A stretch of DNA of 35,688 nucleotides from an uncultured virus (IMG/VR IMGVR_UViG_3300027151_000003) (taxonomy: Duplodnaviria; Heunggongvirae; Uroviricota; Caudoviricetes): the IMG/VR virus record IMGVR_UViG_3300027151_000003. One strand, written 5' to 3'. This document shows, in pieces, positions 9,174-31,804 of the stretch (its first letter is position 1; every line of letters starts with the position of its first letter). Made by a program: the position numbers and the translations under genes. The notes under the pieces were generated by a model. The model did not search any database, had not been told where the DNA came from, and saw only the letters and a list, made by a program, of their open reading frames with translations.

Positions 9174-9231
9174 TCTGGGGAGCCATGTTCTTAATCCCCT
9201 TTCTAATATGGCTCCCCAGACTCTTAAGGGG
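9174..9231 (+). promoter_or_regulatory. 16-bp hairpin / candidate pseudoknot over the polymerase RBS
   Basis: TCTGGGGAGCCATGTT / AATATGGCTCCCCAGA stem; loop CCCCTT is complementary to AAGGGG at 9226-9231. Confidence 0.55.
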
Positions 9232-9237
9232 TATCAA

Positions 9238-11208
9238 TTGAACATTATTACAACAAGAGAACAGTTAGATGAGATGGTTGTCTACTATCTTAAGCAAGAT
9301 GCTTTTGCTTTTGACGTAGAAACTGTTGGAGCAAGACGAGGAGTTCCAGTTGTCAACCAAGTATTATGGATTAGCCTTGCGACACATGGTCGCGGGGATG
9401 TTATTCCGTTGGGCCACCCAAATGGTGAGTTTATATCAGAGAGCTTCCCACTCACGGGGCAAGGAGAGAAGCGCGTTCTCGCGGGCTTACAGGCTAGAGA
9501 GAGTGATTACTCTCGTGACCGCAAAAAAGCTACTAAAACTTTCGGCCCTGCTCCTGAACAACTCTTCCCAGCCGAAGTCTTTGAAGCATTAAAACCTTTA
9601 TTTTTTAGTGACAAGTTAAAAGTAGGTCACAACTTAGTCTTTGATTTATGCTCTGTCTCTAAGTATCTAGATAAAAAAATACCTACAGGCCCTTACTTTG
9701 ACACTATGGTTGGCTCATTTGTATATGACAACCGTAATAAAAACAAGTGTGGCCTTGACGACTGTTTAAAGCGCGAGTTGGGTTATGAGATGGAGAAGGG
9801 TGTTGGCGCTCAGGTAGAGGTTCACCCGTTTAGCACTGTGGCTAAATACGCATACCTAGATGCAAAGTACACTTTCTTACTGTGGAAAGAGGTAGCTAAA
9901 AAGATTACAGAAGCTGACCTAGATAATATTATGAACCTAGAGATGGGCGTATTAGAAGTCTTATGTCATATGAAGTTGCATGGCGCACCTATTGACACCG
10001 AGCAGCTAGCTATACTTAATACCCAGTTAGAGATAGATATAGAAAAAGCTAGGGCTGAGATTTATAAGATTGCTGGTCGAGTATTTAACATTAACTCTAA
10101 CCAAGAAAAGCAGTACCTCCTATACAGCAAGAAGTCCGATGGTGGTCAAGGATTAAGCCCAAAGATTCTTACAGCAAAGGGTCAAGACAAAGAGATGAAG
10201 GGTATAGACCTAGACTACGTAGATTATTCTGTGTCAGCTGAGGCATTAGAGCCTTATCGTGAGAAGAACCTGTTAGTTCACGCTCTGCTCACCTACGCAG
10301 ATTTAAATAAGTTACAGAGCACGTACGTAATCCCATACCTGGGAGGTGACGTTGTCCGTACTGTTGGTGGTAAATCTAAAGTAGAGTACAAGGAAAGCCT
10401 ATTAGTTGACGGGCGTATCCACGCTGACTTTATTCAACATGGAGCTGAGACTGGTCGGTTCTCTAGTCGTAACCCAAACTTGCAGAATGTTCCTAACCCA
10501 GCAACTGCGCATGGTAAGGCTATCCGTAACCTGTTCTATGCACCGCCAGGATACAAACTAGTGGTCGCTGACTACTCACAGATTGAACCTCGCATCATTG
10601 CTTCTATGTCTAAGGACCCAACCATGGTTAAAAACTATGTAGAAGGTGGAGACATCTATACAACTGTTGGAGATGTCATGAAGGTAAACCGTCAGGCTGG
10701 AAAGGTTCTTGTTTTATCTATGGCATACGGCGTAGGTCCAGATAAGATTGCTCGTTCTATTGGATGTACCGTTACCGAAGCACGTACTTTATTAGGAAAC
10801 TTTGCGGATAAGTTTAAGTCCGTAAATATCTATCGCATTAAGGTTATTGGGGCTACTAGAAGTAAACAGTATGTATCCACCCTGATGGGGCGCAAGCGTT
10901 ACTTACCTGAAATTAACTCTAGAGATTTCCTAAAGCGTGGCGGGGCTGAGCGTCAGGCGTTCAACACACGTATCCAAGGGTCTGCTGCTGACATCATGAA
11001 GCTTGCTATGATTAGGGCTCATCAGATGATTCCTGAGGGGGCTAGTATCTTGTTAACCGTACACGATGAACTTGTTACTTTAACCCCAGACAATCTTGTT
11101 GAAGAAACAAAAGAGGCTATTAGAGAAGCAATGGAAGGCATCAACTTACTAGAGGTACCGCTTATTGCAGATGTAAAGGTTGTTCAGCGATGGGGAGAGG
11201 CAAAGTGA
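9238..11208 (+). CDS. polA: Family A DNA polymerase (3'-5' exonuclease + polymerase, no 5' nuclease)
   Basis: FDVET exo motif, TGRFSSRNPNLQNVP, DYSQIEPR motif A, RQAGKVLVLSMAYG motif B, VHDE motif C; TTG start at 9238 chosen from RBS spacing. Confidence 0.95.
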   Translation: MNIITTREQLDEMVVYYLKQDAFAFDVETVGARRGVPVVNQVLWISLATHGRGDVIPLGHPNGEFISESFPLTGQGEKRVLAGLQARESDYSRDRKKATKTFGPAPEQLFPAEVFEALKPLFFSDKLKVGHNLVFDLCSVSKYLDKKIPTGPYFDTMVGSFVYDNRNKNKCGLDDCLKRELGYEMEKGVGAQVEVHPFSTVAKYAYLDAKYTFLLWKEVAKKITEADLDNIMNLEMGVLEVLCHMKLHGAPIDTEQLAILNTQLEIDIEKARAEIYKIAGRVFNINSNQEKQYLLYSKKSDGGQGLSPKILTAKGQDKEMKGIDLDYVDYSVSAEALEPYREKNLLVHALLTYADLNKLQSTYVIPYLGGDVVRTVGGKSKVEYKESLLVDGRIHADFIQHGAETGRFSSRNPNLQNVPNPATAHGKAIRNLFYAPPGYKLVVADYSQIEPRIIASMSKDPTMVKNYVEGGDIYTTVGDVMKVNRQAGKVLVLSMAYGVGPDKIARSIGCTVTEARTLLGNFADKFKSVNIYRIKVIGATRSKQYVSTLMGRKRYLPEINSRDFLKRGGAERQAFNTRIQGSAADIMKLAMIRAHQMIPEGASILLTVHDELVTLTPDNLVEETKEAIREAMEGINLLEVPLIADVKVVQRWGEAK

Positions 11209-11708
11209 GTTGGTTTAATCGTTTCTTTAAAAAAGGTGGAGAGTCCTTTAACGTATCTTTTGAGAACTTTAAGGAAGAGATACCGTTAGGAACGTTGATG
11301 CGTTGGTATCTATACGACACGGACCTATCTGAGCACCCAAACGAGTTAGCTTTACTGTTAGGCATGAACCCTGTAAGTGATGAGGGACATGAGCATGAGA
11401 CTGGCGAAAGCGAAGCACGTCTAGATAACGTTGAGTATTTAATACCTTTTATATCCACGATTGCAGAGCTAGGTGCTGATGTCATTGTTGCTATGCAAAT
11501 AGATGAAATTAAAAAACGAGAACCAGATGGGTTTTTAGAAAAAGAAATTGAAAGAGAGACTGAAATGATGCATATGATGTATAGAATGATTGGTTTCTCA
11601 GCTTTATTAGGCGGCTTGTCAACCGCCATGAAACTTGGTTTAATAGTACCTGGGGAAGTTTACTCAACTGACCTAGCTTATAGAAAGGATGAGGACGATG
11701 AGCAGTAA
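11205..11708 (+). CDS. Hypothetical protein
   Basis: GTG start overlaps the polA stop (GTGA). Confidence 0.7.
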   Translation: MSWFNRFFKKGGESFNVSFENFKEEIPLGTLMRWYLYDTDLSEHPNELALLLGMNPVSDEGHEHETGESEARLDNVEYLIPFISTIAELGADVIVAMQIDEIKKREPDGFLEKEIERETEMMHMMYRMIGFSALLGGLSTAMKLGLIVPGEVYSTDLAYRKDEDDEQ

Positions 11709-12051
11709 TTGGTGGGCTAACAAATTAGGGAGCACACCCGCTCCAAGACCTCAGCCAGTAGCACCACAGGTTCAACCACAACAACAACCTGTTTATCAAC
11801 AACCTCCTTCATACCCAACAGTTCAACAAACAGTGCCTTTATCAGAACGTTGTCCTGGATGTGGAAGTAACAACTACGGTGGGGCAACTCCTGAGTCTCG
11901 CAAACGCTGCTATGATTGCGGTTATCCAATTGTTCAATCTGGAACTGGTGTTTCTGGAGTAAATAGCCCAAGAGCAGACGGCCCTACTCAAGCAGCAAAA
12001 CAAGTACAAGCAGGCGGTTTTAATCCAAACACAATCATAGGACACATTTAA
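11698..12051 (+). CDS. Pro/Gln-rich zinc-ribbon protein
   Basis: CPGC...CYDC; GAGGA RBS. Confidence 0.7.
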   Translation: MSSNWWANKLGSTPAPRPQPVAPQVQPQQQPVYQQPPSYPTVQQTVPLSERCPGCGSNNYGGATPESRKRCYDCGYPIVQSGTGVSGVNSPRADGPTQAAKQVQAGGFNPNTIIGHI

Positions 12052-13103
12052 TGAATGCAGAGTTAATAAAAGTCTTAAAGAATATTAACAAGAAGTACGG
12101 GGATGACACCATCATTCTCGGGTCTGACATTAAGACTGATGTTGCTAAGCGTTACACAACTGGCTCAGTATCACTGGACGTTGCATTAGGCGGTGGGTGG
12201 CCAGTAAACCAGTGGCATGAAATCATTGGTGAAGCTAGTAATGGTAAAACCGCTATTGCATTAAAAACTATTGCTGCTAACCAAAAGCGCGACCCAGAGT
12301 TTACAACTGTGTGGGTAGCAGCAGAGCAGTGGGTTCCTACATACGCAGAGATGTGTGGCGTAGACTCCACTCGTGTATACGTAGTTTCAACTAACGTTAT
12401 GGAGCAAGCATATGAATCTGTCATCCAGCTTACAGAAAGTAAAGCGGTCGATTGTATTGTTATTGATTCTTTACCTGCCTTGGTCCCTACAACAGAAAAC
12501 GATAAGGAGATGGAGGAATCTACTGTAGGTCGTAGCGCCCTTCTAACTAATAAGTTTTTCCGTAAGGTAGGAAAAGCGTCTAAGAGAAGTCTTACAGAAG
12601 AAGAACGTCCATTTATTGGTATTGTTATTAACCAGTGGCGCTCCAAGATTGGCGTTATGTATGGCGACCCCCGCACTACTCCAGGTGGTTTGGGTAAAGA
12701 CTATGCGTTCTTTACCCGTATTGAGGTTCGTCGTGACGACTGGATTGAGGTAGGAACTGGACAAGATAAGCGTCGTGTAGGGCAGAGTATTAAGGCCAGA
12801 GTTATTAAGAACAAGTCAGCCCCACCATCACAGGTGGCTACCTTTGACTTCTACTTCTCAAAGGGCAACGGTTTGCATGCTGGCGACATTGATTTTGCTA
12901 AAGAAATCCTTGCTATTGGCATACTAAACAAGGTAATCAGTAGGGCTGGTGCCTACTACCGTTACGCGGATAGACAGTGGCAGGGTTCTGATGCTATGCT
13001 TGACGCTATACGGGAAGAAATTGATTTAAAAGAGACTTTAGAACGCGATGTACTTGACTCCATCAAGGCAGGCTCCAAGTTGGTAGCCGAGAATGAGGAG
13101 TAA
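12051..13103 (+). CDS. recA: RecA-like recombinase
   Basis: TGSVSLDVALGGGWP, GEASNGKT, IVIDSLPAL, INQWRSKIGVMYGDPRTTPGG, KNKSAPP. Confidence 0.95.
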   Translation: MNAELIKVLKNINKKYGDDTIILGSDIKTDVAKRYTTGSVSLDVALGGGWPVNQWHEIIGEASNGKTAIALKTIAANQKRDPEFTTVWVAAEQWVPTYAEMCGVDSTRVYVVSTNVMEQAYESVIQLTESKAVDCIVIDSLPALVPTTENDKEMEESTVGRSALLTNKFFRKVGKASKRSLTEEERPFIGIVINQWRSKIGVMYGDPRTTPGGLGKDYAFFTRIEVRRDDWIEVGTGQDKRRVGQSIKARVIKNKSAPPSQVATFDFYFSKGNGLHAGDIDFAKEILAIGILNKVISRAGAYYRYADRQWQGSDAMLDAIREEIDLKETLERDVLDSIKAGSKLVAENEE

Positions 13104-13437
13104 AGGACAAAAGGAGTCGAAGAAGCACGAGGACCGACTAGCAAAAGCAGTAGGTGGACAGCGTACAGCTGCCAGCGGTGCATTTTGGAGTCGTAAAGGT
13201 GATGTTCGGTCTAAAGACTTGTTAATAGAACACAAGTGGACTGGCAAAGCCACCGTAACCATTAAAGCTACGGTTCTAGAAAAGATTGTTACAGAAGCAA
13301 TTCTTGACAGTCGTATGCCTGTCCTCGGTTTTAGTCTCAACAATGAAAATTATGTGATGCTAACTGAAGATGACTTTTTGGAACTACGCCAGAGACTTCA
13401 GGAGTTAATTGAGTGCACGAAGACGTCGGACACGTAG
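13093..13437 (+). CDS. PD-(D/E)xK nuclease, Holliday junction resolvase-like
   Basis: E...SGA...KGDV...LIEHK motif order. Confidence 0.7.
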   Translation: MRSKGQKESKKHEDRLAKAVGGQRTAASGAFWSRKGDVRSKDLLIEHKWTGKATVTIKATVLEKIVTEAILDSRMPVLGFSLNNENYVMLTEDDFLELRQRLQELIECTKTSDT

Positions 13438-13730
13438 AGGGCTGGAGACATAAAGCCAAGTGTCGCGGTATGGATACAGAGTTGTGGTACCCACCAAGAG
13501 ATAAAGCAAAGTATAAAAAGATAGCAACCGTATCTAAAGCAGTGTGTTTTGGTAAGGATGGTTTGCCAGAGTGCCCTGTGCGTAAAGAGTGTTTACTATA
13601 TTCAGAGTCAATGGATGAGCAGCACGGTATCTGGGGTGGCATGTCACATCGCGAACGCAACGCGTTAAAACGTAAAGCTAAAAAAGAAGGAAAGACCCTC
13701 GAGGAGTGGGTGCTTGACTTTGATATGTGA
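13413..13730 (+). CDS. whiB: WhiB-family Fe-S transcription factor
   Basis: W...AKC, four Cys, CPVRKECL, HGIWGGMSHRER. Confidence 0.9.
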   Translation: MHEDVGHVEGWRHKAKCRGMDTELWYPPRDKAKYKKIATVSKAVCFGKDGLPECPVRKECLLYSESMDEQHGIWGGMSHRERNALKRKAKKEGKTLEEWVLDFDM

Positions 13731-13742
13731 TAGGGTCTGAAT

Positions 13743-14600
13743 ATGACACAGCCTAAGTACAAGCCTTCAGGAGCATTAAAGAGTTTTGTAAACGCTGGTA
13801 AAAAACCAACCAGAGTATTAACTTCAGTAGAGAGACATGTTCTTTCTAAACCAAAAGACATGAGCCGCCGCACCGATGTGTTGCATCCATCAGAGATGGC
13901 AAGCGGTGAGTGGTGTTATCGCGCTTCTTACTTTCAGTTAAAGGGTCACTACCCTCTAGAAAGTAATAGAACCAACAGTCTTAGATTACAATCCGTTTTT
14001 GCTGAAGGCCATGGTATCCACGCTAAGTGGCAAAAGTGGTTCCAAGAAATGAACTGTCTATACGGTAAGTGGTATTGCAAAGACTGTGACGAGTACTTCT
14101 TTGGCGGCTCTGACTGTCACGAAGGGCCACTTGAGTATTGTGAAGTTCCGTTGTTCTATGAGCCTTTGCGCATTTCAGGTCATGCTGATGGGTGGTTAGT
14201 AAACCTAGGTGACCCACTAATGTTAGAGGTTAAATCTATCGGTATTGGAACTATCCGTTGGGAAAACCCAGAGCTAGTAGCACAGCACAGCGGTAATATG
14301 GAAAAGATTTGGGCAGATATTAAAGAGCCTTTTGCTAAGCACATTACTCAAGTACAAATTTATATGAAGCTTGCCGAGTTGTTAGAACTACCAGATTACC
14401 CAAGAGAAGCAGTGCTTATCTACGAAAACAAAGCAACACAGGATGTAAAAGAGTTTGTAGTACCTAAATCTGACTTTGCTATTGCACCAATGTTTGAGGC
14501 AGCAGCAATGATTATGGAAGCCATTAATAACAACACTCCTCCCGCTTGTAATTTAGACAAGTGGGGCGGATGTTCTAAGTGCGGAGGTTATAATGAGTGA
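13743..14600 (+). CDS. Cas4-like / PD-(D/E)xK exonuclease
   Basis: HPSE..WC.R, GHGIH, GHADG..LEVKS, QVQIYM, C-terminal C..CSKC. Confidence 0.8.
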   Translation: MTQPKYKPSGALKSFVNAGKKPTRVLTSVERHVLSKPKDMSRRTDVLHPSEMASGEWCYRASYFQLKGHYPLESNRTNSLRLQSVFAEGHGIHAKWQKWFQEMNCLYGKWYCKDCDEYFFGGSDCHEGPLEYCEVPLFYEPLRISGHADGWLVNLGDPLMLEVKSIGIGTIRWENPELVAQHSGNMEKIWADIKEPFAKHITQVQIYMKLAELLELPDYPREAVLIYENKATQDVKEFVVPKSDFAIAPMFEAAAMIMEAINNNTPPACNLDKWGGCSKCGGYNE

Positions 14601-17186: not shown

Positions 17187-17238
17187 ACTGCATAATTGTA
17201 TCTACGGGGTTCCACACTATTCGTAAACCGAGGTACAC

Positions 17239-17517: not shown

Positions 17518-17578
17518 CCCTGTATTTCTACCCCAATAGATATACCCTGTTATTACTCCTAAGGCCAAAGGAAACCAT

Positions 17579-17920: not shown

Positions 17921-17934
17921 AACTTAATAGCTAG

Positions 17935-17960
17935 AGGCCCCGCTATATGCGGGGCTTTTT
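17935..17960 (+). terminator. Rho-independent terminator
   Basis: AGGCCCCGC-TATAT-GCGGGGCTT followed by a T run. Confidence 0.85.
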
Positions 17961-18056
17961 GCATTTTGGGAATATATTTTATATTAGATTGTTGTATACT
18001 ATAGATGACTGCTCAACCGAGGGTCACTTAACTTATATCGTCTAAGGAGATATATT

Positions 18057-18605: not shown

Positions 18606-18652
18606 GACTGTCCATGGACGTCCACTGACGTTCACCAGTGTTATTATATGAT

Positions 18653-18745
18653 TGCAAGACGTACTGTAACCCTGTTATAGTACGACTCCCCCTTCTTGTA
18701 CCGTGACCCCCTGCTAAATATTTTATTTAGCAGGGGGTTTACTTT
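18653..18745 (+). ncRNA. Candidate ~90-nt small RNA with its own promoter and terminator
   Basis: Extended -10 TGnTATTAT (18639-18647); 7-bp + 11-bp nested stem with C-rich bulge ACTCCCCCT; 15-bp terminator hairpin 18706-18738. Confidence 0.5.
18706..18745 (+). terminator. Terminator hairpin
   Basis: ACCCCCTGCTAAATA-TTT-TATTTAGCAGGGGGT then TTACTTT. Confidence 0.75.
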
Positions 18746-18812
18746 ACTTACCGCCACTGATTCTTTATGATACGCTTACTATCACACACGAGACGGGGCG
18801 AAAGGACAACCT

Positions 18813-22410: not shown

Positions 22411-22427
22411 TGTGATAGGCTACCGTC

Positions 22428-22985
22428 ATGGGTAACATCATTGACGAGCTAGAGCCAGATAGAATGAACCTGCTTGTATGTAAGCAGTGTAAAACTATCC
22501 AAGAAATTCCGTACACCAAGACTGGTAAGTCATTAGGTGAGGGTCGTTATGACCAATCTGATAATCCATTTATTCAAATGTATATCGGCGACTGCGAGCG
22601 TCAAGGGCACTTTGGTGTCCTTAGTGACTGTTTAACAGTTGCATGGATGGGTAACCCAAGTCTTAAAGAAAGTATCCTTAATCAGATTAAGGAACAGATA
22701 CTAGATGGTGGCTCTAAGGGGCTAGACATCCTTGGCACTAACTTCTATAACGTAAAAGACACCTATTCCTCAGATGCGATGAAGTGTTACGCTATCCATA
22801 ACCGTCCCAAGGGACAGTGCCCTGACTATAAGTCAGACCGCAAAGAACTAAAACCAGATACAGCCAAAGACCGTCTAGAAGCAGGGCTAAAAGCAACAAA
22901 CGCAAAGATTCACTTATGTGATTTTTGTCCTGTTAAGATGTACAACCAAAAACGTGCTTACCAAGCGAGAGGACTATACAATTGA
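22428..22985 (+). CDS. Cys-rich hypothetical protein (leaderless candidate)
   Basis: CKQC, C..H..P..QC, CDFC; TAGGCT-N6-ATG. Confidence 0.7.
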   Translation: MGNIIDELEPDRMNLLVCKQCKTIQEIPYTKTGKSLGEGRYDQSDNPFIQMYIGDCERQGHFGVLSDCLTVAWMGNPSLKESILNQIKEQILDGGSKGLDILGTNFYNVKDTYSSDAMKCYAIHNRPKGQCPDYKSDRKELKPDTAKDRLEAGLKATNAKIHLCDFCPVKMYNQKRAYQARGLYN

Positions 22986-23554: not shown

Positions 23555-23561
23555 TACCTAG

Positions 23562-24494
23562 ATGAACTTCTATGACGCGCTGGTGAAGCAGGCTAAGCCA
23601 GTCACTATAGAGCCCTCCGAGACTTCCTACTTCAGCACCCCAGGTGCTGGGTTGGACCCCCGTCTGTTTAGAGACGGAAAGATTATTCCCCATATCCGTT
23701 CTTTAATTTATAGAATCCTTCTTGAGCATTTAAGAGCCCGCTACAGCAACCCAGAATCATACGTACATGTGTGGTTAGCTGGTTCTGCAGTTTCTTATCA
23801 ATGGACAGCAGCAAGAAAACCAGCAGACCTTGATTGCCTAATTGGAGTTAACTACCTAGCGTTTCGTCAGGCTAATCCAAAGTATAAAGGTCTAAGTGAC
23901 CGTGAGATTTCCCAGATGTTCAACGAGGGTTTTAATACGGAATTGCACCCAGTTACAGGAAACTTCCTGGATATATTTGAATTGACGTTCTATGTTAATG
24001 TGCAGTCTGACATACGTAAAATAAAGCCATACGCAGCATACTCACTGACAAATGATGATTGGACTGTGCAACCTGAAGTTAGGGCTGTTCCTAATAATAA
24101 ACAATGGAACCGTCGTGTAGCTCAGGATAAATCCTTAGCTGTAGATATTTTATCTAGATACTCAGATGCTTTATCTAATATAGGTTCTGCTTCTACTGAT
24201 GTGGCTAGACGCAATGCTGAAGCTGCATTAAAGCTAGCTGTAGAGCAGGGAGCTGCTTTATTTGAAGACATCCATCAAGGAAGAAAACACGCGTTTAGCC
24301 CTAGTGGACAGGGTTATGGAGATGTATATAATTATCGCTGGCAGTCAGGAAAAGCAAGCGGAGTCGTACAAGCACTAAAAGAACTAAAAGAAATTTCTAA
24401 AAAAACAAAACAAGATTTTGAAGCACAGACTTATGGTATGGAACTACCAACAACTAGCACTCTAATAAGGAGAGCAGCTACACACTACAACTGA
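23562..24494 (+). CDS. Pol-beta superfamily nucleotidyltransferase
   Basis: WLAGSAVSYQW...ADLDCLIGV (GS + DxD), later ELTFYV strand; TATAAT-N6-ATG. Confidence 0.78.
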   Translation: MNFYDALVKQAKPVTIEPSETSYFSTPGAGLDPRLFRDGKIIPHIRSLIYRILLEHLRARYSNPESYVHVWLAGSAVSYQWTAARKPADLDCLIGVNYLAFRQANPKYKGLSDREISQMFNEGFNTELHPVTGNFLDIFELTFYVNVQSDIRKIKPYAAYSLTNDDWTVQPEVRAVPNNKQWNRRVAQDKSLAVDILSRYSDALSNIGSASTDVARRNAEAALKLAVEQGAALFEDIHQGRKHAFSPSGQGYGDVYNYRWQSGKASGVVQALKELKEISKKTKQDFEAQTYGMELPTTSTLIRRAATHYN

Positions 24495-24506
24495 TAGGGT
24501 ATATAC

Positions 24507-24968
24507 GTGGCAATATTAGTTTTTCTAGATGGGGTATTAAAAGATACTAGGCTTGGTGGCCCCATTCAAGACGGCATGTCTTTATATAGAACACTTAAAG
24601 AAAAACACCGTGTTTTAATCCTTTGTGATGATGTTACAAAGGGCGACCATTGGCTTCGCCAACAACGAATTAACAATATTGACGACGTTGTAGATAAAAC
24701 CAACGTCCCCGCACTTGGTGACAACGCAGACTTTAGACTGGTGGAGTGGATTAAAAGCCAAGGCCCAGTAGAGTTAGTTATTACTTCTGACCCCGATTTG
24801 ACTGTTAAGTTATTGTCTGTTGGTATTACTACCTTAGTATTTATGTCCCCTGTCTACATTAGGGAAGAGTTCAGACCCGATAGCCGAAAGGGTGTCAAGT
24901 CTTGGCAAAAGATTGTAGAAGAGATAGACTCACAGAACGCCGCATATAAGGAGGACCCACGGATATGA
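24507..24968 (+). CDS. HAD-fold protein with degenerate motif I
   Basis: ILVFLDGVLKD (canonical DxDGVL lacks the first Asp here). Confidence 0.55.
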   Translation: MAILVFLDGVLKDTRLGGPIQDGMSLYRTLKEKHRVLILCDDVTKGDHWLRQQRINNIDDVVDKTNVPALGDNADFRLVEWIKSQGPVELVITSDPDLTVKLLSVGITTLVFMSPVYIREEFRPDSRKGVKSWQKIVEEIDSQNAAYKEDPRI

Positions 24969-25075
24969 CCGATACACCAAAATGTCCACAAGGATGTGAC
25001 TCCAAAACTTTGGAGTATGTTGGAGACAAAGCCTGGTTATGTTCCAAGTGTGGGCATACCTGGGGCCGTGAATGA
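24965..25075 (+). CDS. 36-aa zinc-ribbon microprotein (not in the ORF track)
   Basis: MTDTPKCPQGCDSKTLEYVGDKAWLCSKCGHTWGRE; ATGA overlaps at both ends. Confidence 0.65.
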   Translation: MTDTPKCPQGCDSKTLEYVGDKAWLCSKCGHTWGRE

Positions 25076-26538: not shown

Positions 26539-26651
26539 GATTTCCTATTATCATATAAGAAACCTTAGCAACACCCTGGAACATGATTAGTTCTAAAACA
26601 GATGTAACGCACGTATAAACTATACGTTCAATTAAACAAGAGGAGATTACG

Positions 26652-28685
26652 ATGGCATTTACTTTTCGCCTAGCAGAAGAATTTTTAAAGGACTACCGCG
26701 AGAAGAAAGTGCCTTGGGGATACCAAGATGCCGCTGGTAACTCAGTTGGCGAAATTACCTTTTTAAGAACCTACTCCCGCTTAAAAGAAAATGGGGAAAA
26801 GGAAACTTGGACCGACGTTTGCCAACGCGTAATCGAGGGCATGTATTCAATCCAGAAAGACCACTGTAAGTCTCAGCGTTTACCTTGGAATGACTCCAGG
26901 GCTCAGGCTTCGGCTAAGGAAGCGTTTGACCGTTTGTTTAATTTAAAGTGGACTCCACCAGGCCGAGGTCTGTGGGTTATGGGCACCCCGATTGTCAATG
27001 AGCTCAAGAACTCTGCAGCACTGCAGAACTGTGCTTTTGTCTCTACTTCTAGCATGTCTAAATTAGACCCTGCCAAGCCGTTTGCTTTTCTAATGGAAGC
27101 ATCAATGCTGGGCGTAGGTGTAGGCTTTGACGACAAGGGCGCGGACAAAGATTTCACAATCTACGAGCCTAAGTTGCCAGAAGTAACTATCCAGATTCCA
27201 GATACCCGTGAGGGCTGGGTTGAGTCATTAAGCATGCTTATTAACTCCTATTTAAAACCAGAACAGCCTGTCTATGTATTTGATTACTCCCTAATCCGTC
27301 CTGCTGGCGTTCCCATCAAAACCTTTGGAGGCACGGCCGCGGGCCACGAGCCGCTGGAGAAGCTGCACAATCACGTCCGCTCTATCTTTAATAAGAAAAG
27401 GGCCAATTCTAAATTAACAAGGGTAGATATTGCCGATTTAGGTAATTTAATCGGTGTGTGCGTTGTCTCTGGCAACGTCCGCCGCTCAGCCGAGCTACTC
27501 ATGGGTAGATTAGATGACCAAACCTTTTTAAATTTAAAGAACCCTGCCAAGTTCCCAGAGCGCAACTCATACGACAGCTCAGCTCCTGGTTGGGCCTGGA
27601 TGTCTAACAACTCTGTTGAGGTCTCAGTCGGTTCTAATTTAGAACACATTGTTGAGGGTATTGCCCTGAACGGTGAGCCTGGTGTTATCTGGATGGATGT
27701 TACTCGTCAGTATGGTCGCCTTATTGACCCAATCAATAATAAAGACCATCGAGCCGCTGGTTACAACCCATGCGCGGAACAGTCTTTGGAATCATTTGAG
27801 TGTTGCACTCTGGTTGAAACCTACCTCAACCGCCATGACTCTATAGAAGATTACAAGCGCACATTAAAGTTTGCTTACCTTTACGCGAAGACCGTCACAT
27901 TGCTACCTACCCACTGGGAAGAAACTAACGCAATCATGCAACGCAATCGTCGCATTGGAACTTCTATGTCTGGTGTAGCCAACTTTGCAGACCGCGTAGG
28001 GCTACCAACTCTTCGTGTGTGGATGGACGAGGGATATGCAGTTATCCAAAACTACGACCGCACATACTCCGAGTGGTTAGGTATCCGCGAATCTATTAAG
28101 ACTACGACAGTCAAGCCATCAGGAACAGTATCTATCCTTGCTGGTGAATCTCCTGGGGTGCATTGGACTCCTGGTGGTGAGTATTTCCTTCGTGCAATCC
28201 GCTTTGGAAACGATGACCCTATGCTTCCTCTCTTTAAGGCGTCAGGTTATAAAGTAGAAAAAGCTTCGGAATCTCCTAAGACTACTAGCGTGGTGTTCTT
28301 CCCTATTAAGTCCTCTGCAAAAAGGTCGGAAAAGGATGTCTCTATTTACGAAAAGATGTCTCTCGCAGCGATGGCACAGCGTTATTGGTCAGACAACAGC
28401 GTTAGCGTTACAGTATCATTTAATGCAAATACTGAAAAAGACGCCGTAGGAACAGTGCTACATATGTTTGATGGGCAACTCAAAACCGTTTCTTTCTTAC
28501 CTATGGGGAACGAGACTTACCCACAGATGCCATACACACAGATAACTAAAGAAGAATACGAAAAATCTACTATGAAGTTACTGCCTATCGACTTTACTGA
28601 TGTCTATGCAGGAATGGCAGCCGATGCAATCGGTGAGAAATACTGCTCAACGGACTTCTGCGAAGTGCCTATAAAAGATAATTAA
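26652..28685 (+). CDS. nrdJ: Class II (AdoCbl-dependent) ribonucleotide reductase, RTPR-like
   Basis: RTYSR, PPGRGLW, LQNCAF, GNVRRSA, NGEPG, NPCAEQ, TVKPSGT, C-terminal CSTDFC; no small subunit nearby. Confidence 0.92.
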   Translation: MAFTFRLAEEFLKDYREKKVPWGYQDAAGNSVGEITFLRTYSRLKENGEKETWTDVCQRVIEGMYSIQKDHCKSQRLPWNDSRAQASAKEAFDRLFNLKWTPPGRGLWVMGTPIVNELKNSAALQNCAFVSTSSMSKLDPAKPFAFLMEASMLGVGVGFDDKGADKDFTIYEPKLPEVTIQIPDTREGWVESLSMLINSYLKPEQPVYVFDYSLIRPAGVPIKTFGGTAAGHEPLEKLHNHVRSIFNKKRANSKLTRVDIADLGNLIGVCVVSGNVRRSAELLMGRLDDQTFLNLKNPAKFPERNSYDSSAPGWAWMSNNSVEVSVGSNLEHIVEGIALNGEPGVIWMDVTRQYGRLIDPINNKDHRAAGYNPCAEQSLESFECCTLVETYLNRHDSIEDYKRTLKFAYLYAKTVTLLPTHWEETNAIMQRNRRIGTSMSGVANFADRVGLPTLRVWMDEGYAVIQNYDRTYSEWLGIRESIKTTTVKPSGTVSILAGESPGVHWTPGGEYFLRAIRFGNDDPMLPLFKASGYKVEKASESPKTTSVVFFPIKSSAKRSEKDVSIYEKMSLAAMAQRYWSDNSVSVTVSFNANTEKDAVGTVLHMFDGQLKTVSFLPMGNETYPQMPYTQITKEEYEKSTMKLLPIDFTDVYAGMAADAIGEKYCSTDFCEVPIKDN

Positions 28686-28696
28686 ATATATAAAGT

Positions 28697-28735
28697 AGAG
28701 AGCCCCCCTAGACCCGAACTAGGGGGGCTTTCTTT
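28697..28735. terminator. Bidirectional terminator at the strand switch
   Basis: AGAGAGCCCCCCTAG-ACCCGAA-CTAGGGGGGCTTTCT with A-rich left and T-rich right flanks. Confidence 0.85.
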
Positions 28736-28740
28736 ATGCT

Positions 28741-28808
28741 ATAGCGTTGATTACGGCGAAGGGACGGAAACCATAATCAAGGGCGGAGATGAGGACACCC
28801 TGCGCTAT
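28741..28808 (-). ncRNA. Candidate three-way-junction structured RNA with two C/U-rich loops
   Basis: Minus strand ATAGCG-CA-[GGGTG TCCTCATCTC CGCCC]-[TTGATTATGG TTTCCGTCCCTTCG CCGTAATCAA]-CGCTAT; G-U pairs only work on the minus strand. Confidence 0.55.
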
Positions 28809-28814
28809 TAAATC

Positions 28815-28967
28815 CTAACCACAACTATTACAGAAATTATATACTCTCATTTGTTGTTTAGCAATTAGGAAAGACCTACCGCAGTGATAGCAAGCCACCA
28901 TTTCTGTAGTCCTGCGTCTCTTATGTAACTCTATTAGAACTTCGTAGTTACTTATATTAATCTTCAT
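28815..28967 (-). CDS. Small zinc-finger protein (50 aa, not in the ORF track)
   Basis: MKINISNYEVLIELHKRRRTTEMVACYHCGRSFLIAKQQMRVYNFCNSCG. Confidence 0.65.
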   Translation of the reverse strand: MKINISNYEVLIELHKRRRTTEMVACYHCGRSFLIAKQQMRVYNFCNSCG

Positions 28968-29082
28968 CGTCGTCGCCTAACTCAAACTCTTCAAACTCTT
29001 CTTCACTCTCTTTAACTGGTGAAGATATGGTCCAATCGCCGTTAGGGACAATAGGGTCAAAAGAATAGTTAAAAGTAGACAT
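28957..29082 (-). CDS. Acidic microprotein (41 aa)
   Basis: MSTFNYSFDPIVPNGDWTISSPVKESEEEFEEFELGDDDED. Confidence 0.55.
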   Translation of the reverse strand: MSTFNYSFDPIVPNGDWTISSPVKESEEEFEEFELGDDDED

Positions 29083-29090
29083 TTAAGTAA

Positions 29091-29378
29091 TTAAATCTCT
29101 CTCTTAAATATAACTTGTCCTGCAAACTCTGTCGGTTTTCCCTTCGCGTCAAGCGTAGCTCCTGGGCCCATTTTTACAGACTTGCGTGTGGTCATCTTGA
29201 TAACCATCTCTTTAATCCAACGCTTACCTGCGCTCGCGTTAGACCATGCGGTTGATACGATTACATTACCTTCGTCAATGCCCTCATCATAGGTAGTAAC
29301 ACGGGCTAACCATGCGCCACCTTTTTCAGGGTTCTTCTTTAGTGTTGCGTCAAATACTACATTTACTTTTTTACCCAC
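29091..29378 (-). CDS. Hypothetical protein
   Basis: 95 aa, AAGGAG RBS with GTG start. Confidence 0.7.
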   Translation of the reverse strand: MGKKVNVVFDATLKKNPEKGGAWLARVTTYDEGIDEGNVIVSTAWSNASAGKRWIKEMVIKMTTRKSVKMGPGATLDAKGKPTEFAGQVIFKREI

Positions 29379-29381
29379 TTG

Positions 29382-29795
29382 TTACTCCTTAGTAATAGGC
29401 CAATGGTATGGCAAGGTTTCATCTACATCAGGGAAGTATTGCCGATAATGTTCTGCAAACTTCCTAACTAGGTTCGCTTGGTGCGACCTATGAAAGTCGG
29501 GGTCGCCTAGCCATGAAGGATAGACTACAGGCTCAACAGGGAACTTGTCTAGTAGGGTGTCCTTGTAACCTCTCTCGCGCCACTCAACACAAACTATGCG
29601 CCCATACTCGTAAAGGGCAGGCTCGTAATCTCTCCACATGAGAACGGCAGGGTGGTTACGCCAACCGCCACCTTTACTCTCTCCGTTAAGAACTCTCATA
29701 ATTTGGTAAGCCTCAACTCTCTGCTTACCTAATCGGCGCATGTCCAGCACCCTAGCACTCTCTCTAAAATTAGATAGCGGTAGGAAAGTCTGCAT
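29382..29795 (-). CDS. MSMEG_6728-like / pyrimidine-dimer glycosylase-fold protein
   Basis: MQTFLP...LD.RRLGKQRVEA, NHPAVLMW, EWRERGY, PSWLGD..HRSHQANLVRK, PYHWP. Confidence 0.8.
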   Translation of the reverse strand: MQTFLPLSNFRESARVLDMRRLGKQRVEAYQIMRVLNGESKGGGWRNHPAVLMWRDYEPALYEYGRIVCVEWRERGYKDTLLDKFPVEPVVYPSWLGDPDFHRSHQANLVRKFAEHYRQYFPDVDETLPYHWPITKE

Positions 29796-29877
29796 GCTCT
29801 CCCTCTTTCTGCTCTAGGCACTTATGGACTTCCCATAAGCCCTCTTTCATTAAGTCACCGCACCAATTACACATCAT
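29770..29877 (-). CDS. Microprotein with C2HC motif (35 aa)
   Basis: MMCNWCGDLMKEGLWEVHKCLEQKEGEHADFPTAI; GGAGAG RBS. Confidence 0.5.
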   Translation of the reverse strand: MMCNWCGDLMKEGLWEVHKCLEQKEGEHADFPTAI

Positions 29878-29886
29878 CTCTCTCTC

Positions 29887-30030
29887 CTATACTTTATCGG
29901 GGCTACCTTGCGGTATAGCGCATAATACACAGAACGCTAGACCAATTTCTCCTGCTTCTTCATTATATACATCATCAGGGAATAACATCTCTCCCTTATC
30001 AAACTCTAAAAAACATCTAGCGCACCTCAC
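29887..30030 (-). CDS. Zinc-finger microprotein (47 aa)
   Basis: MRCARCFLEF...FCVLCAIPQ; GTG start overlaps the upstream stop. Confidence 0.55.
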   Translation of the reverse strand: MRCARCFLEFDKGEMLFPDDVYNEEAGEIGLAFCVLCAIPQGSPDKV

Positions 30031-30194
30031 GATACGCCGTCCATTTCAATAACGGACTTCTTTTCTATATTTAATCCTTTATCTTTCTCTCCACACGCAC
30101 AGTTTCCGCAACCACAACCGCCACCACCGCCGCCACTCAGCGTAGGTGCATTTTCTTGGGTGTATAGGATTTCTTGTCCAGCGTTATCTCTCAT
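30027..30194 (-). CDS. Gly/Cys-rich microprotein (55 aa)
   Basis: MRDNAGQEILYTQENAPTLSGGGGGGCGCGNCACGEKDKGLNIEKKSVIEMDGVS. Confidence 0.6.
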   Translation of the reverse strand: MRDNAGQEILYTQENAPTLSGGGGGGCGCGNCACGEKDKGLNIEKKSVIEMDGVS

Positions 30195-30214
30195 TTGATT
30201 ATCTCTTTTCTATA

Positions 30215-30337
30215 TTAAAGGACTACATAGGGAATAGGTTTAGAGCAGGTATCGCACTCTCCGCTACAGCAGGTGCAGTAACTATCATAGACATGGGAGT
30301 TACTTTCGGGTAACTCCCAACAACACACTCTCTCCAT
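30215..30337 (-). CDS. Cys-rich microprotein (40 aa)
   Basis: MERVCCWELPESNSHVYDSYCTCCSGECDTCSKPIPYVVL. Confidence 0.5.
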   Translation of the reverse strand: MERVCCWELPESNSHVYDSYCTCCSGECDTCSKPIPYVVL

Positions 30338-30338
30338 A

Positions 30339-30515
30339 TTATTTTTTACCTTCCGCGTCGGTGTTAGCGTCGTCGTATCCTGCCATATAAATAGCGGATA
30401 ACCTCTCCACCAGCATATTAGTTGCGTTATCTATATTAGGCATTGAAGCCTCAAAATACATAATTTGGTCGGCTTGTTCTTTAATATCCTCTAGTGCATC
30501 AGCGCTTATCATCAT
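30339..30515 (-). CDS. Hypothetical protein (58 aa)
   Basis: MMISADALEDIKEQADQIMYFEASMPNIDNATNMLVERLSAIYMAGYDDANTDAEGKK. Confidence 0.6.
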   Translation of the reverse strand: MMISADALEDIKEQADQIMYFEASMPNIDNATNMLVERLSAIYMAGYDDANTDAEGKK

Positions 30516-30927
30516 CTATCACCGCCTCTCCTTCCTGTATCTTTCCGTCGGCTAGGGTTAGTGTATCTCCGTAACCTTTCCACACGATATTGCCTTCGGG
30601 GTCGCTAATAGTAATAAGGTTATCGGGGTCTTTAACCCATTGTTGTAGGGCATGGGCGTTGATAATAGTTTCAACGCTAGCAACACTCTCTCCCTTATAT
30701 TTATTTCCATTAAGGTCTATCTCTGCATACCACTCGCCCTCGTTAGCCTTGTTAATAGCATTAACGCATGGGTCAAGCATACTTAGTGGGATAGTCTTAT
30801 CGAACTTGTTTTGCAGGTGATACGCGACTTCGGCGTGTAGCGGTGATAACTCCTCTACCGCGTCGTCGTCATGCTCGATGACTTCTGCGTCGATAATCTC
30901 GTTCCCGTTAGCGTCGTAATCCGTCAT
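30499..30927 (-). CDS. Acidic hypothetical protein
   Basis: 142-aa ORF co-directional with the early operon. Confidence 0.75.
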   Translation of the reverse strand: MTDYDANGNEIIDAEVIEHDDDAVEELSPLHAEVAYHLQNKFDKTIPLSMLDPCVNAINKANEGEWYAEIDLNGNKYKGESVASVETIINAHALQQWVKDPDNLITISDPEGNIVWKGYGDTLTLADGKIQEGEAVIDDDKR

Positions 30928-30957
30928 TAGTTTTCTCTCTAATAGTTGTTGTATATA

Positions 30958-31113
30958 TTAAACTAACGCTTTGACGCGATAGTCTGCCTTGTGCTTCAGA
31001 TTTCCGTATTCTTCTCCGACCCACTCGTCGGCTAGGGCTATCGCTTGGTCTGCGTTTTCCGCTTCCCATGTTGTCGCCATATTAACTATCACTTGCACTT
31101 CGTATCTAGGCAT
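30958..31113 (-). CDS. Hypothetical protein (51 aa)
   Basis: MPRYEVQVIVNMATTWEAENADQAIALADEWVGEEYGNLKHKADYRVKALV; GAGGA RBS. Confidence 0.65.
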   Translation of the reverse strand: MPRYEVQVIVNMATTWEAENADQAIALADEWVGEEYGNLKHKADYRVKALV

Positions 31114-31273
31114 ATTCCTCTACCTCTCGCTCTATGTAGCCTTCTACAATTAAACTATCTAGTAAGTCTGATATATCGCCTAACCGACCTCTTAACTTCG
31201 GTTCGGTTACTGCGTATCGTGCTTCCTCTATAGCATTTACCATAGAGTATAGGTTTTCCTTTGTATAGTCCAT
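31106..31273 (-). CDS. Hypothetical protein (55 aa)
   Basis: MDYTKENLYSMVNAIEEARYAVTEPKLRGRLGDISDLLDSLIVEGYIEREVEEYA; AGGAG RBS. Confidence 0.65.
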   Translation of the reverse strand: MDYTKENLYSMVNAIEEARYAVTEPKLRGRLGDISDLLDSLIVEGYIEREVEEYA

Positions 31274-31279
31274 TTATTT

Positions 31280-31531
31280 TTACTCCTCTATCTCATCTAA
31301 TCGGGTAATCATAGGCGCTTGCAGATTTAAGTCTGCGATAACCTTAGTAAGACTATCAACCCACTCGTCAATATCTTGTCGTTCATCATGGTAATCAAGG
31401 TTATCTAGTCGGGTATCTTTGCTACCGCGTAGGTAGTTTAGGTCAAGGCTTGCACCTAACGCCGTATCTATAAGGATAATAGCCGAACTATCGCCCTCTA
31501 GGTATTTCTTGCATACTTCGTCGTATATCAT
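31280..31531 (-). CDS. Hypothetical protein
   Basis: 83 aa, AGGGGA RBS. Confidence 0.7.
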   Translation of the reverse strand: MIYDEVCKKYLEGDSSAIILIDTALGASLDLNYLRGSKDTRLDNLDYHDERQDIDEWVDSLTKVIADLNLQAPMITRLDEIEE

Positions 31532-31539
31532 TTTATCCC

Positions 31540-31731
31540 CTATCTGATTTTAGTATTGTCCTCTAGGTAGAACGCATAGTCAATAGCACTAAGCGCTAGG
31601 TTATTTAGATTTTCCGCTTGCGGGTGGTTGGTATCTTGCACTATGTCTAGTATCTTGTTAAGCGTTACTTTAAGCATTTCCTTGTAATCTATATTTATAT
31701 TGTCTGTGTCTTGTGCGATTTCTATGTCCAT
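31540..31731 (-). CDS. Hypothetical protein
   Basis: 63 aa, GGAG upstream. Confidence 0.65.
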   Translation of the reverse strand: MDIEIAQDTDNINIDYKEMLKVTLNKILDIVQDTNHPQAENLNNLALSAIDYAFYLEDNTKIR

Positions 31732-31753
31732 GTTCCATCTCCGTTTAATTCCT

Positions 31754-31804
31754 GACTTCCCTAGTTTGTGTAGGGCGTGGGGGGAAGGGTTAGCCCACGC
31801 CCTA
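31754..31804 (-). promoter_or_regulatory. 11-bp intergenic hairpin / candidate pseudoknot
   Basis: Minus strand TAGGGCGTGGG-CTAACCCTTCCC-CCCACGCCCTA then CACAAACTAGGGAAG; loop CTTCCC complements GGGAAG. Confidence 0.5.

What the first reader, a model, noticed from the sequence alone, without database searches (positions are those of the whole stretch)
9174..31804. Recurrent structured RNAs exposing C/U-rich anti-SD-like strands: a possible RNA regulatory layer
Seen: four separate intergenic elements (9174-9231 +, 18653-18745 +, 28741-28808 -, 31754-31804 -) each show a stable stem presenting CCCCTT, CTCCCCCT, TCCCTT/TCCTC or CCCTTCCC unpaired; three have a complementary G-rich tract just downstream. 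Known: actinobacterial 6C RNA and alphaproteobacterial cuckoo RNAs use C-rich loops against RBS regions. Inference: a phage system of cis switches and trans sRNAs acting on SD-led translation, complemented by leaderless genes. I do not recognise it as a described family.
Basis: partly seen in the sequence, partly recalled or inferred. Interest (0 to 1): 0.72.

Follow-up and report, generated by a model that had tools for sequence, protein, structure and literature searches.

The report
C-rich loop RNA hairpins, freshwater phage
Four intergenic RNA structures of an uncultured freshwater phage do share an exposed cytosine-rich motif resembling the ribosome's mRNA-docking sequence, and the one before the DNA polymerase gene is kept in dozens of related phages, but they are not one family and how they work is unproven.

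Summary
The window is part of a ~96-kb phage of a large freshwater group whose nearest cultured kin are Streptomyces phages. E1 (9174-9220) is a real 16-bp hairpin just upstream of the DNA polymerase ribosome-binding site. All 42 distinct relatives have a hairpin there, with 18 unrelated stem sequences. The loop motif AUCCCCU(U) is kept in 29 of 42. E4 (31771-31804, minus) is kept in all 4 known variants, with compensatory stem changes and a conserved CCCUUCCCC loop. E2 is the hsp20 3' region: a poorly conserved hairpin, a conserved CUCCCCCUUCUU strand and an ordinary terminator, with promoter-like boxes that could make a small RNA. E3 is weak in the window, but relatives carry a covarying three-way junction with C/U-rich loops at the same place. 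CCC+UU+C lies at 5 intergenic and 1 coding site on the sense strand. No Rfam family matches. The 'one RNA regulatory layer' reading is only partly supported. The loop-to-Shine-Dalgarno complementarity is real at consensus level. It lacks covariation support, and for E1 it cannot form a classical pseudoknot. No discrete transcript was shown. Best reading: anti-SD-like C-rich loop elements (RsaE/6C principle), two in cis and two terminator-linked. Confidence is moderate.

The parts
9174..9220 (+). E1 hairpin (16-bp stem, 15-nt loop) between the stop of the 244-aa gene (9163) and the polymerase ribosome-binding site
   Evidence: A hairpin of >=11 bp sits at this place in 42 of 42 distinct relatives, with 18 stem types.
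9194..9204 (+). E1 loop motif AUCCCCUUUCU (anti-SD-like)
   Evidence: A C-run loop is kept in 29 of 42 distinct relatives (15 of 18 stem types).
9226..9231 (+). AAGGGG Shine-Dalgarno of the DNA polymerase gene, complementary to the E1 loop CCCCUU
   Evidence: GGGG lies within 20 nt of the start in 23 of 29 class-A and 1 of 13 class-B relatives.
9238..11208 (+). DNA polymerase I gene, start TTG 9238
   Evidence: PHROG 17, E 1e-120. Relatives start at the equivalent ATG/TTG.
18639..18681 (+). Two promoter-like boxes inside the hsp20 3' region: TGTTATTAT (18639-18647), and TTGCAA-18 nt-TGTTATAGT (18652-18681)
   Evidence: TTGCAA and TGTTATAGT are conserved while the spacer varies in L025, L032, L033 and L055.
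18660..18684 (+). E2 hairpin 1 (10 bp, loop CCCUG); not conserved as a structure
   Evidence: The 5' arm changes without compensation in L055, L032 and L025.
18686..18697 (+). E2 C-rich strand CUCCCCCUUCUU
   Evidence: Conserved in 7 of the 8 distinct sequences of the window clade and two sister clades; the eighth (L006) has one U for C (CUCCCCCUUUUU). Absent from the other 20 of 28 distinct hsp20-downstream spacers.
18705..18749 (+). Canonical intrinsic terminator of hsp20 (16-bp stem, T-rich tail)
   Evidence: Every relative has a terminator here.
28741..28808 (-). E3: closing stem plus two hairpins with loops UCCUCAUCUC and UUUCCGUCCCUUCG, 11 nt upstream of the terminator on the minus strand
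   Evidence: One compensatory change and one minus-strand-only G-U against L236. Relatives have a covarying three-way junction at the same position.
28836..28864 (-). Promoter-like TTGCTA-17-TATAAT upstream of E3
   Evidence: 10 of 12 consensus matches. Not clearly conserved in relatives.
28701..28729 (.). Bidirectional terminator between the convergent RNR and minus-strand units
31771..31804 (-). E4 hairpin (11 bp), loop CUAACCCUUCCC (31793-31782)
   Evidence: Kept in 4 of 4 distinct variants with compensatory stem changes.
31756..31771 (-). ACACAAAC box (31771-31764) and GGGAAG tract (31761-31756) complementary to the E4 loop
35421..35426 (-). Fifth intergenic CCCUUC site (UAUCCCUUCCCUAUA) in the long leader/origin-like region
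   Evidence: Homologous site in G004 at 95090.

Best explanation
The four sites are separate RNA elements of one phage lineage. What they share is a pyrimidine seed, UCCC(C)UU(U)C, displayed unpaired on stable helices of the transcribed strand. This is the same design as the UCCC/C-rich loops of RsaE, RNAIII and 6C RNA, which pair with G-rich Shine-Dalgarno regions.

E1 and E4 are intercistronic cis elements. Each is a tail-less hairpin whose conserved loop faces a complementary purine tract a few nucleotides downstream. For E1 that tract is the AAGGGG(A)U SD of the DNA polymerase gene.

E2 and E3 sit next to the terminators of two transcription units (the hsp20 3' end and the end of the minus-strand unit). 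They could be released as 3'-end-derived or separately promoted small RNAs carrying the same seed.

Inferred mechanism: the C-rich loop competes with the 16S anti-SD for purine-rich ribosome-binding sites and so damps translation. This would act between molecules, or after partial opening of the stem for E1, and possibly through a pseudoknot for E4.

Shown: existence, strand, conservation, stem covariation, loop conservation, consensus complementarity. Inferred: pairing with the SD, any effect on translation, and discrete transcripts.
For: E1:
- 77 of 78 polymerase loci were usable and gave 42 distinct upstream sequences. All 42 have a hairpin of >=11 bp between the upstream stop and the SD.
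- There are 18 stem types. In 16 of 18 representatives all 10 inner positions pair, whereas arms from different types pair at a mean of 4.5 of 10 (n=306).
- 390 of 420 inner cells pair, with 45 G-U against 5 A-C, which indicates sense-strand RNA.
- Loops keep a C-run in 29 of 42. 25 of those 29 have a C-run-containing complement of 4-8 nt in the SD region.
- Class A hairpins are not terminator-like: 1 of 29 has a U-tract, against 10 of 13 in class B.

E4: 4 of 4 variants keep the loop CUA[A/U/C]CCCUUCCCC over changed stems. One A<->U change in the loop is matched by U<->A in the downstream GGAAGG(UUA/AUUA).

E3-like element of 7 relatives: 19 pairs, 10 with compensatory changes. Minus-strand G-U 17 against A-C 4. 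Loops carry CCCUUC, CCUUUCU or CUCCCCCUC.

Motif placement: 5 of 6 sense-strand CCC+UU+C sites are intergenic. In G004, 6 of 20 are intergenic, in 7.6% of the genome.

Precedent:
- An unpaired UCCC motif of RsaE and RNAIII loops binds SD regions and blocks initiation (PMC2790875, abstract and passages read).
- 6C RNA binds mRNAs through C-rich loops without chaperones (PMC6486639, abstract read).

Host frame: nearest cultured polymerases are from Streptomyces phages at 40% identity. The phage carries WhiB and TGnTAnnnT promoters, some leaderless.
Against: - The permutation test finds no loop/SD flank covariation beyond the two consensus motifs: own 6.19 against cross 5.99 nt, p=0.21.
- On the polymerase tree the class-B loop plus non-GGGG SD is one clade, so one concordant event. 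L112 (B loop, GGGG SD) and three A-loop lineages without GGGG are discordant.
- E1 linkers of 0-8 nt cannot span stems of 13-21 bp, so loop and SD cannot pair while the stem stands.
- Streptomyces phage BRock has an 18-bp hairpin at the same place with a non-C-rich loop. The hairpin itself therefore has a role independent of the motif.
- The trans target scan ranks many ribosome-binding sites, and the polymerase site is not among the best six for the E1 loop.
- C/U-rich hexamers in general are enriched in intergenic DNA.
- RNA-library contigs of three runs bridge from hsp20 into E2. E2 is thus at least part of the hsp20 3' end, and no separate small RNA was shown.
- The window's E3 is not found by the model of the relatives' element.
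Confidence: 0.4

Rival explanations
1. These are ordinary transcript-end or transcript-boundary hairpins. They would be tail-less or leaky terminators, attenuators or nuclease barriers that set the ratio and stability of upstream and downstream messages. The C-rich loops would have no pairing role.
For: - All lie right after stop codons or next to terminators.
- The E2 3' hairpin and 28701-28729 are canonical terminators.
- 10 of 13 class-B E1 homologues have a U-tract and short ACGUGC-type loops.
- BRock has a position-equivalent hairpin without a C-rich loop.
- Tail-less hairpin terminators are discussed for Actinobacteria (recalled, not checked here).
Against: - The loop motif is kept across 15 stem types while the stems are replaced.
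- Loops of 8-20 nt are unlike terminator loops.
- 28 of 29 class-A homologues lack a U-tract.
- The polymerase gene has no room for its own promoter between hairpin and SD, so full termination is excluded.
- The same motif recurs in E2-E5.
Confidence: 0.25
2. They are protein-binding operators. The loops would be read by a phage or host RNA-binding protein. Examples are autogenous translational control of the polymerase, as at the T4 gene 43 operator, or a boxB-like antitermination site with one site per transcription direction.
For: - Conserved loop with free stem sequence is the signature of loop-reading proteins.
- There are two loop classes, and class B is one polymerase clade.
- The E1 and E4 loops resemble each other: UAAUCCCCUUUC against UAACCCUUCCC.
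- E1 sits on the plus-strand unit and E4 on the minus-strand unit.
- The missing loop/SD covariation fits a protein partner.
Against: - No RNA-binding domain was found among the 79 protein queries scanned: 40 against PHROGs and 39 against Pfam.
- The T4 operator parallel is recalled, not tested.
- Consensus complementarity to the adjacent purine tract in both E1 and E4 would then be coincidence.
Confidence: 0.2
3. They are DNA-level elements: cruciforms or protein sites for replication, packaging or transcription control.
For: - E4 is followed by (C)AACACAAAC. This box occurs 11 times in relative G004. 8 of the 11 lie near the ends of the G004 record (positions 376-3103 and 95269-95361), and three of those are followed by TGTGGATAAC DnaA-box-like repeats.
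- 10-nt periodic repeats lie beside E2.
Against: - G-U pairs are valid only on the transcribed strand: 45 against 5 in E1 and 17 against 4 in the E3-like element.
- Stem sequences are not conserved.
- The motif is biased to the sense strand in intergenic DNA, 5 against 1.
Confidence: 0.05

Closest known systems
UCCC-motif small RNAs of Firmicutes (RsaE/RoxS, RNAIII, other Rsa RNAs)
   Same: An unpaired UCCC/C-rich motif sits in the most conserved part, helices vary, and the motif is complementary to SD sequences. Typical layout is a 5' hairpin plus terminator (PMC2790875), as proposed for E2 and E3.
   Different: Those are chromosomal, separately transcribed and shown to block initiation. Here there is no homology (no Rfam hit), the elements are in a phage, two of the four are intercistronic cis hairpins, and neither transcripts nor targets are shown.
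6C RNA of Actinobacteria
   Same: C-rich loops on stable hairpins pair with G-rich mRNA sites without a chaperone (PMC6486639 abstract). The host phylum is probably the same.
   Different: There is no match to any Rfam model at E<=10. The loops have CCC(C)UU rather than runs of six or more C. Architecture and genomic setting differ.
Cuckoo RNAs of Alphaproteobacteria
   Same: Multi-hairpin RNAs with C-rich loops aimed at ribosome-binding sites. I saw PMC4615179 only as a search listing; the mechanism is recalled.
   Different: No Rfam match, a different phylum, and the elements here are not repeated copies of one gene.
T4/RB69 gene 43 translational operator
   Different: The T4 operator has a short stem and binds a family-B polymerase. 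Here the stems are 11-21 bp, the polymerase is family A, and binding is untested.
Intrinsic (rho-independent) terminators
   Same: A GC-rich stem after a stop codon. The E2 3' hairpin, 17933-17959 and 28701-28729 are typical examples.
   Different: E1 and E4 have 12-15-nt loops and no U-tract, so the scan does not call them on their own strand. 28 of 29 class-A E1 homologues lack a U-tract.

Membership tests
6C RNA (Rfam) | Match to the family covariance model | tested here: not met
   Only tRNAs reach gathering score. At E<=10 there are 6 matches, none to 6C.
6C RNA (Rfam) | Two hairpins whose loops each carry a run of about six C (feature as recalled) | tested here: not met
   The two loops of E3 have at most CCC. 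E1 has CCCC and E4 has CCC plus CCC.
Cuckoo RNA (Rfam) | Match to the family covariance model | tested here: not met
   No match at E<=10.
UCCC-motif SD-targeting sRNA class | Unpaired UCCC motif in the conserved part of the RNA | tested here: met
   E1 has AUCCCC, E2 CUCCCCC and E3 GUCCCUU. E4 has AUCCCUU in G004 but AACCCUU in the window. All are unpaired in MFE folds, and the loops are conserved.
UCCC-motif SD-targeting sRNA class | Discrete transcript with its own promoter and terminator | tested here: inconclusive
   Promoter-like boxes and terminators flank E2 and E3. RNA-library contigs only show continuity from hsp20 into E2. E1 and E4 have neither.
UCCC-motif SD-targeting sRNA class | Pairing with SD regions that blocks initiation | not testable with these tools
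   Only consensus complementarity is seen. The covariation test is negative and the target scan is unspecific.
Intrinsic terminator | GC-rich stem, loop of 3-8 nt, U-tract within 2 nt of the stem | tested here: met
   Met for 18705-18739 (the E2 3' hairpin) and for 28701-28729.
Intrinsic terminator | Same features, applied to E1 and E4 | tested here: not met
   Neither is listed on its own strand. The loops are 15 and 12 nt and the tails are CUCUUAAG and CACAAACU. A U-tract is present in 11 of 42 E1 homologues, 10 of them class B.
H-type pseudoknot (loop pairs with downstream tract) | Linker long enough to span stem 1 | tested here: not met
   For E1 the linker is 0-8 nt for stems of 13-21 bp in class-A homologues, except L080/L081 with 15 nt. 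The length rule is from recalled pseudoknot geometry.
H-type pseudoknot (loop pairs with downstream tract) | Covariation between loop and downstream tract | tested here: inconclusive
   E4 has linkers of 9-20 nt for 10-14-bp stems and one compensatory A-U/U-A change among 4 variants. For E1, p=0.21.

The most novel reading that the evidence does not exclude
A widespread group of freshwater actinobacterial phages carries a dedicated set of anti-Shine-Dalgarno mimics. These are cis hairpins in front of the DNA polymerase and other genes, plus two terminator-linked small RNAs, all built on the seed UCCC(C)UU(U)C. Together they would hold down SD-dependent translation of chosen phage (and perhaps host) messages, while several phage genes escape because they are transcribed leaderless from TGATAGG(G/C)T promoters.
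Probability: 0.12. Interest if true: 0.8.

Novelty: new variant of a known kind. Interest (0 to 1): 0.55.

Why it matters
Phage-encoded RNA regulators are few, and almost none are known from the abundant uncultured freshwater actinophages. E1 is a strongly covarying RNA motif, with 18 stem types, tied to the replication polymerase. The three-way junction next to the RNR terminator is a second such motif. Neither matches any Rfam family, so both are ready candidates for new RNA families. If the C-rich loops do act on Shine-Dalgarno sites, it would show that the chaperone-free C-loop/G-site principle of Gram-positive small RNAs is also used by phages. It would also link that principle to the leaderless/leadered split of actinobacterial translation. 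Streptomyces phage BRock has a hairpin at the same place, which offers a cultured system for a first test.

Tried and rejected
- DNA searches of the cultured-phage collection found nothing.
- Earlier-findings look-ups were empty.
- Rfam gave only tRNAs, plus a sub-threshold rli38 hit over the E2 terminator (30.4 bits against a 49-bit cut-off), which I rejected.
- MAFFT alignments of the E1 hairpins were not structure-consistent, and RNAalifold then predicted 0 pairs. I therefore measured covariation in a script anchored on the loop and did not use the count of structure pairs.
- Model R2, built from 5 close E1 sequences, recovered 8 further true sites only weakly (E 3e-8 to 4.5), alongside antisense and chance hits, so I did not iterate it.
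- Model R1 of the relatives' three-way junction did not find the window's E3, G004 or the near relatives L235-L237 and L239 at E<=1. Pairwise alignment of E3 to that element was about 2 SD above shuffles in either orientation, so homology and an apparent inversion are left open.
- The protein and pattern searches for more E4 relatives gave only the same three clades. 6 of the 11 distinct pattern hits were chance matches without a hairpin.
- Metatranscriptome contigs cannot show starts, ends or strand. Parts without cover, the contig ends at 18686, 18690 and 18705, the shared start at 18042 in three runs, and an adapter-joined end at 9182 were not used as evidence.
- The first literature search returned nothing relevant. 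The third found no paper on phage-encoded C-rich-loop RNAs in actinophages.
- The preQ1-riboswitch idea, prompted by the DpdA-like gene, was dropped because no Rfam hit supports it and the stems are far too long.


Full report
**Setting**

- The window carries plus-strand genes from 150 to 28685 and minus-strand genes from 35195 down to about 28958.
- PHROG and Pfam matches include DnaC- and DnaB-like proteins, primase, a helicase, DNA polymerase I, UvsX, RusA, WhiB, RuvC, an HslV-like peptidase, SpoVS and Hsp20. They also include a metallophosphoesterase, a DpdA-like transglycosylase, ribonucleotide reductase and a CobS/CobT-like pair.
- Three tRNAs (Asn, Gly, Gln) lie at 6983-7208.
- No cultured phage matches at the DNA level. 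IMG/VR holds many relatives: 68 loci around the metallophosphoesterase, 275 polymerase matches of which 78 loci were kept, and 597 RNR matches of which 80 were kept.
- One relative, G004, is 95,461 bp and estimated 99% complete.
- The nearest cultured polymerases belong to Streptomyces phages at 40% identity. With WhiB and TGnTAnnnT promoters this points to an actinobacterial host, which is an inference.

**E1 (9174-9220, plus strand)**

- Structure in the window: a 16-bp stem with the 15-nt loop CUUAAUCCCCUUUCU (-29 kcal/mol for the 82-nt context, z -3.8). It starts 11 nt after the stop of the 244-aa gene. It ends 5 nt before AAGGGG, the SD of the polymerase gene.
- The polymerase start is TTG 9238, because relatives align from residue 8-11 and carry ATG or TTG there.
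- Conservation of the hairpin: 77 of 78 polymerase loci were usable and gave 42 distinct upstream sequences. All 42 have a hairpin of at least 11 pairs at this place.
- Covariation: the inner ten positions define 18 stem types. 16 of 18 representatives pair at 10 of 10 positions, and the other two have a bulge. Arms taken from different types pair at a mean of 4.5 of 10, n=306.
- Strand: 390 of 420 inner cells pair, and 45 are G-U against 5 A-C, so the structure belongs to the sense-strand RNA.
- Loop classes: class A has a C-run inside AUCCCCU(U) (29 of 42 sequences, 15 stem types). Class B has (AAC)ACGUGC (13 of 42).
- Terminator test: class B looks terminator-like, with a U-tract in 10 of 13. 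Class A does not, with a U-tract in 1 of 29.
- Cultured kin: Streptomyces phage BRock has an 18-bp hairpin (z -6.0) between gp86 and the polymerase SD with a non-C-rich loop. GiJojo has no spacer there.

**Does the E1 loop pair with the SD?**

- At consensus level the fit is clear. 25 of 29 class-A sequences have a C-run-containing complement of 4 to 8 nt in the SD region.
- GGGG lies within 20 nt of the start in 23 of 29 class-A sequences but in only 1 of 13 class-B sequences.
- Three results weaken the idea.
  - Swapping loops and SD regions among stem types does not lower the match significantly. Own is 6.19 against cross 5.99 nt (p=0.21, 16 types). Over all 19 class-A types it is 5.89 against 5.65 (p=0.14).
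  - On a polymerase tree the class-B, non-GGGG sequences form one clade (98/97 support). L112 and three class-A lineages are discordant. The association therefore rests on very few independent events.
  - The linker from stem to purine tract is 0-8 nt for stems of 13-21 bp. Loop and SD therefore cannot pair while the stem stands (geometry recalled).
- What remains is joint retention of loop CCCC and SD GGGG across the whole tree while stems are replaced.

**E4 (31771-31804, minus strand)**

- Structure: an 11-bp stem with the loop CUAACCCUUCCC, lying between the CobT-like gene and a 63-aa gene.
- Depth of comparison: only three related clades could be found, giving 4 distinct variants.
- Conservation: all four keep the loop CUA[A/U/C]CCCUUCCCC. 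The stem changes with compensation (GGGCGUGGG/CCCACGCCC against GCGCGGUGGG/CCCACCGCGC, with G-U pairs on the minus strand).
- Possible pseudoknot: a purine tract complementary to the loop lies 9-20 nt downstream (GGGAAG, GGAAGGUUA, GGAAGGAUUA, GGAAG). One loop A/U change is matched in the tract. A pseudoknot is sterically possible here, but the evidence is thin.
- Adjacent box: the hairpin is followed by (C)AACACAAAC. This box occurs 11 times in G004. 8 of the 11 lie near the ends of the G004 record (positions 376-3103 and 95269-95361), and three of those are followed by TGTGGATAAC repeats.

**E2 (18653-18745, plus strand)**

- Terminator: every relative has a canonical terminator after hsp20, followed by a TGnTAnnnT promoter.
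- Conserved block: only the window clade and two sister clades (8 of the 28 distinct spacers) have the extra block TGTTATAGTACGACTCCCCCTTCTTGTAC. It is exact in 6 of these 8; L006 and L033 each differ at one base within the C-rich strand.
- Hairpin: its 5' partner arm is not conserved and changes without compensation, so the first hairpin is not a conserved structure.
- Promoter-like architecture: the conserved pieces fit a promoter, TTGCAA, a 17-18-nt variable spacer and TGTTATAGT. A second copy, TGTTATTAT, lies 34 nt upstream. These could give RNAs of about 58 and 93 nt ending at the terminator.
- Transcript evidence: contigs from three river RNA libraries (X1, X2, X4) run from 18042 to 18686-18705. 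They bridge the hsp20 stop and the hairpin. The region is therefore at least part of the hsp20 3' end. DNA carry-over in such libraries cannot be excluded, and contigs cannot show ends.

**E3 (28741-28808, minus strand)**

- In the window it is a closing stem with two hairpins (z -2.4). It lies 11 nt before the bidirectional terminator and downstream of a TTGCTA-17-TATAAT box.
- Near relatives add one compensatory change and one G-U valid only on the minus strand.
- At the same position, 7 more distant relatives carry a three-way junction with 19 predicted pairs, 10 of them with compensatory changes.
- That junction folds better on the minus strand (-18.9 against -14.5 kcal/mol), with 17 G-U against 4 A-C cells there. 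Its minus-strand loops carry CCCUUC, CCCCUUC, CUCCCCCUC or AACCUUUCU.
- Homology with the window's E3 could not be shown.

**The shared motif**

- CCC+UU+C on the transcribed strand lies at E1, E2, E3, E4, a fifth intergenic site (35426) and only one coding site. The antisense strand has 10 coding hits and 1 intergenic hit.
- In G004 the sense-strand split is 6 intergenic to 14 coding.
- All C4U2 words, and also purine G4A2 words, are about 3-fold enriched in spacers.
- No Rfam family matches, even at E<=10.

**Comparison with known systems and verdict**

- The design is that of UCCC/C-rich-loop regulators (PMC2790875 passages; PMC6486639 abstract).
- My three literature searches found no description of such elements in phages. 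I did not search further than that.
- Verdict: the features are real, and E1 and the three-way junction are new RNA motifs. The unifying mechanism remains an inference.

Noticed in passing
window 13728-13745, 22413-22430, 24492-24509; also 18768-18776: TGATAGG(G/C)T followed by exactly 6 nt and ATG/GTG at three gene starts. These look like extended -10 promoters for leaderless mRNAs. The same box type (TGnTAnnnT) sits 36 nt upstream of gene 18813 and after the hsp20 terminator in nearly all relatives.
   Followed up: partly
window 35196-35688; G004 (L245, L249) 370-3110 and 95260-95460: A long non-coding region holds hairpins, the repeated box CCAACACAAAC, DnaA-box-like TGTGGATAAC, tandem TGAACAACCT, and GAGAG/CUCUC tracts. 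It may be an origin or an early control region.
   Followed up: partly
window 18610-18640; L023, L024, L029, L032 spacers after hsp20: 10-nt periodic direct repeats (GTCCAYNGAC / ACTGACGTCC / TTCACTGAAG) lie beside E2. In the window clade they are upstream of the conserved TATAGT block, and in another clade downstream of it.
   Followed up: no
L183:4084-4175, L155, L156, L186, L198, L207, L225 (minus strand of the loci): A covarying three-way-junction RNA lies next to the RNR/convergent terminator. It has invariant junctions GCGUYAAAG, CUAAGG, CAUGA and ACCUGCGC and has no Rfam match.
   Followed up: partly
window 28958-29081 (minus): A 43-aa ORF with an acidic tail (...ELGDDDED) is conserved in L183 and missed at the 50-aa cut-off. 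The listed ORF 28815-28967 may be spurious.
   Followed up: no
window 18042: RNA-library contigs of three runs all begin at 18042, 15 nt before the hsp20 start and 8 nt after TAACTT. hsp20 has the highest contig depth of the 20 kb laid. This is only a weak hint of a transcription start.
   Followed up: no
L274:1130-1170 (Streptomyces phage BRock, between gp86 and gp85): An 18-bp hairpin (z -6.0) lies directly upstream of the DNA polymerase ribosome-binding site. It is position-equivalent to E1 but has the loop GAUACAUUUC.
   Followed up: partly
E1 homologues, stems (L071-L148): The 5' arms are purine-rich with SD-like words (GGAGG, GAAGG, GAAAGG, GGGGAG). The 3' arms carry the complementary CCUUUCU or CCCUUCU, so the stem itself resembles an SD/anti-SD duplex.
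   Followed up: no
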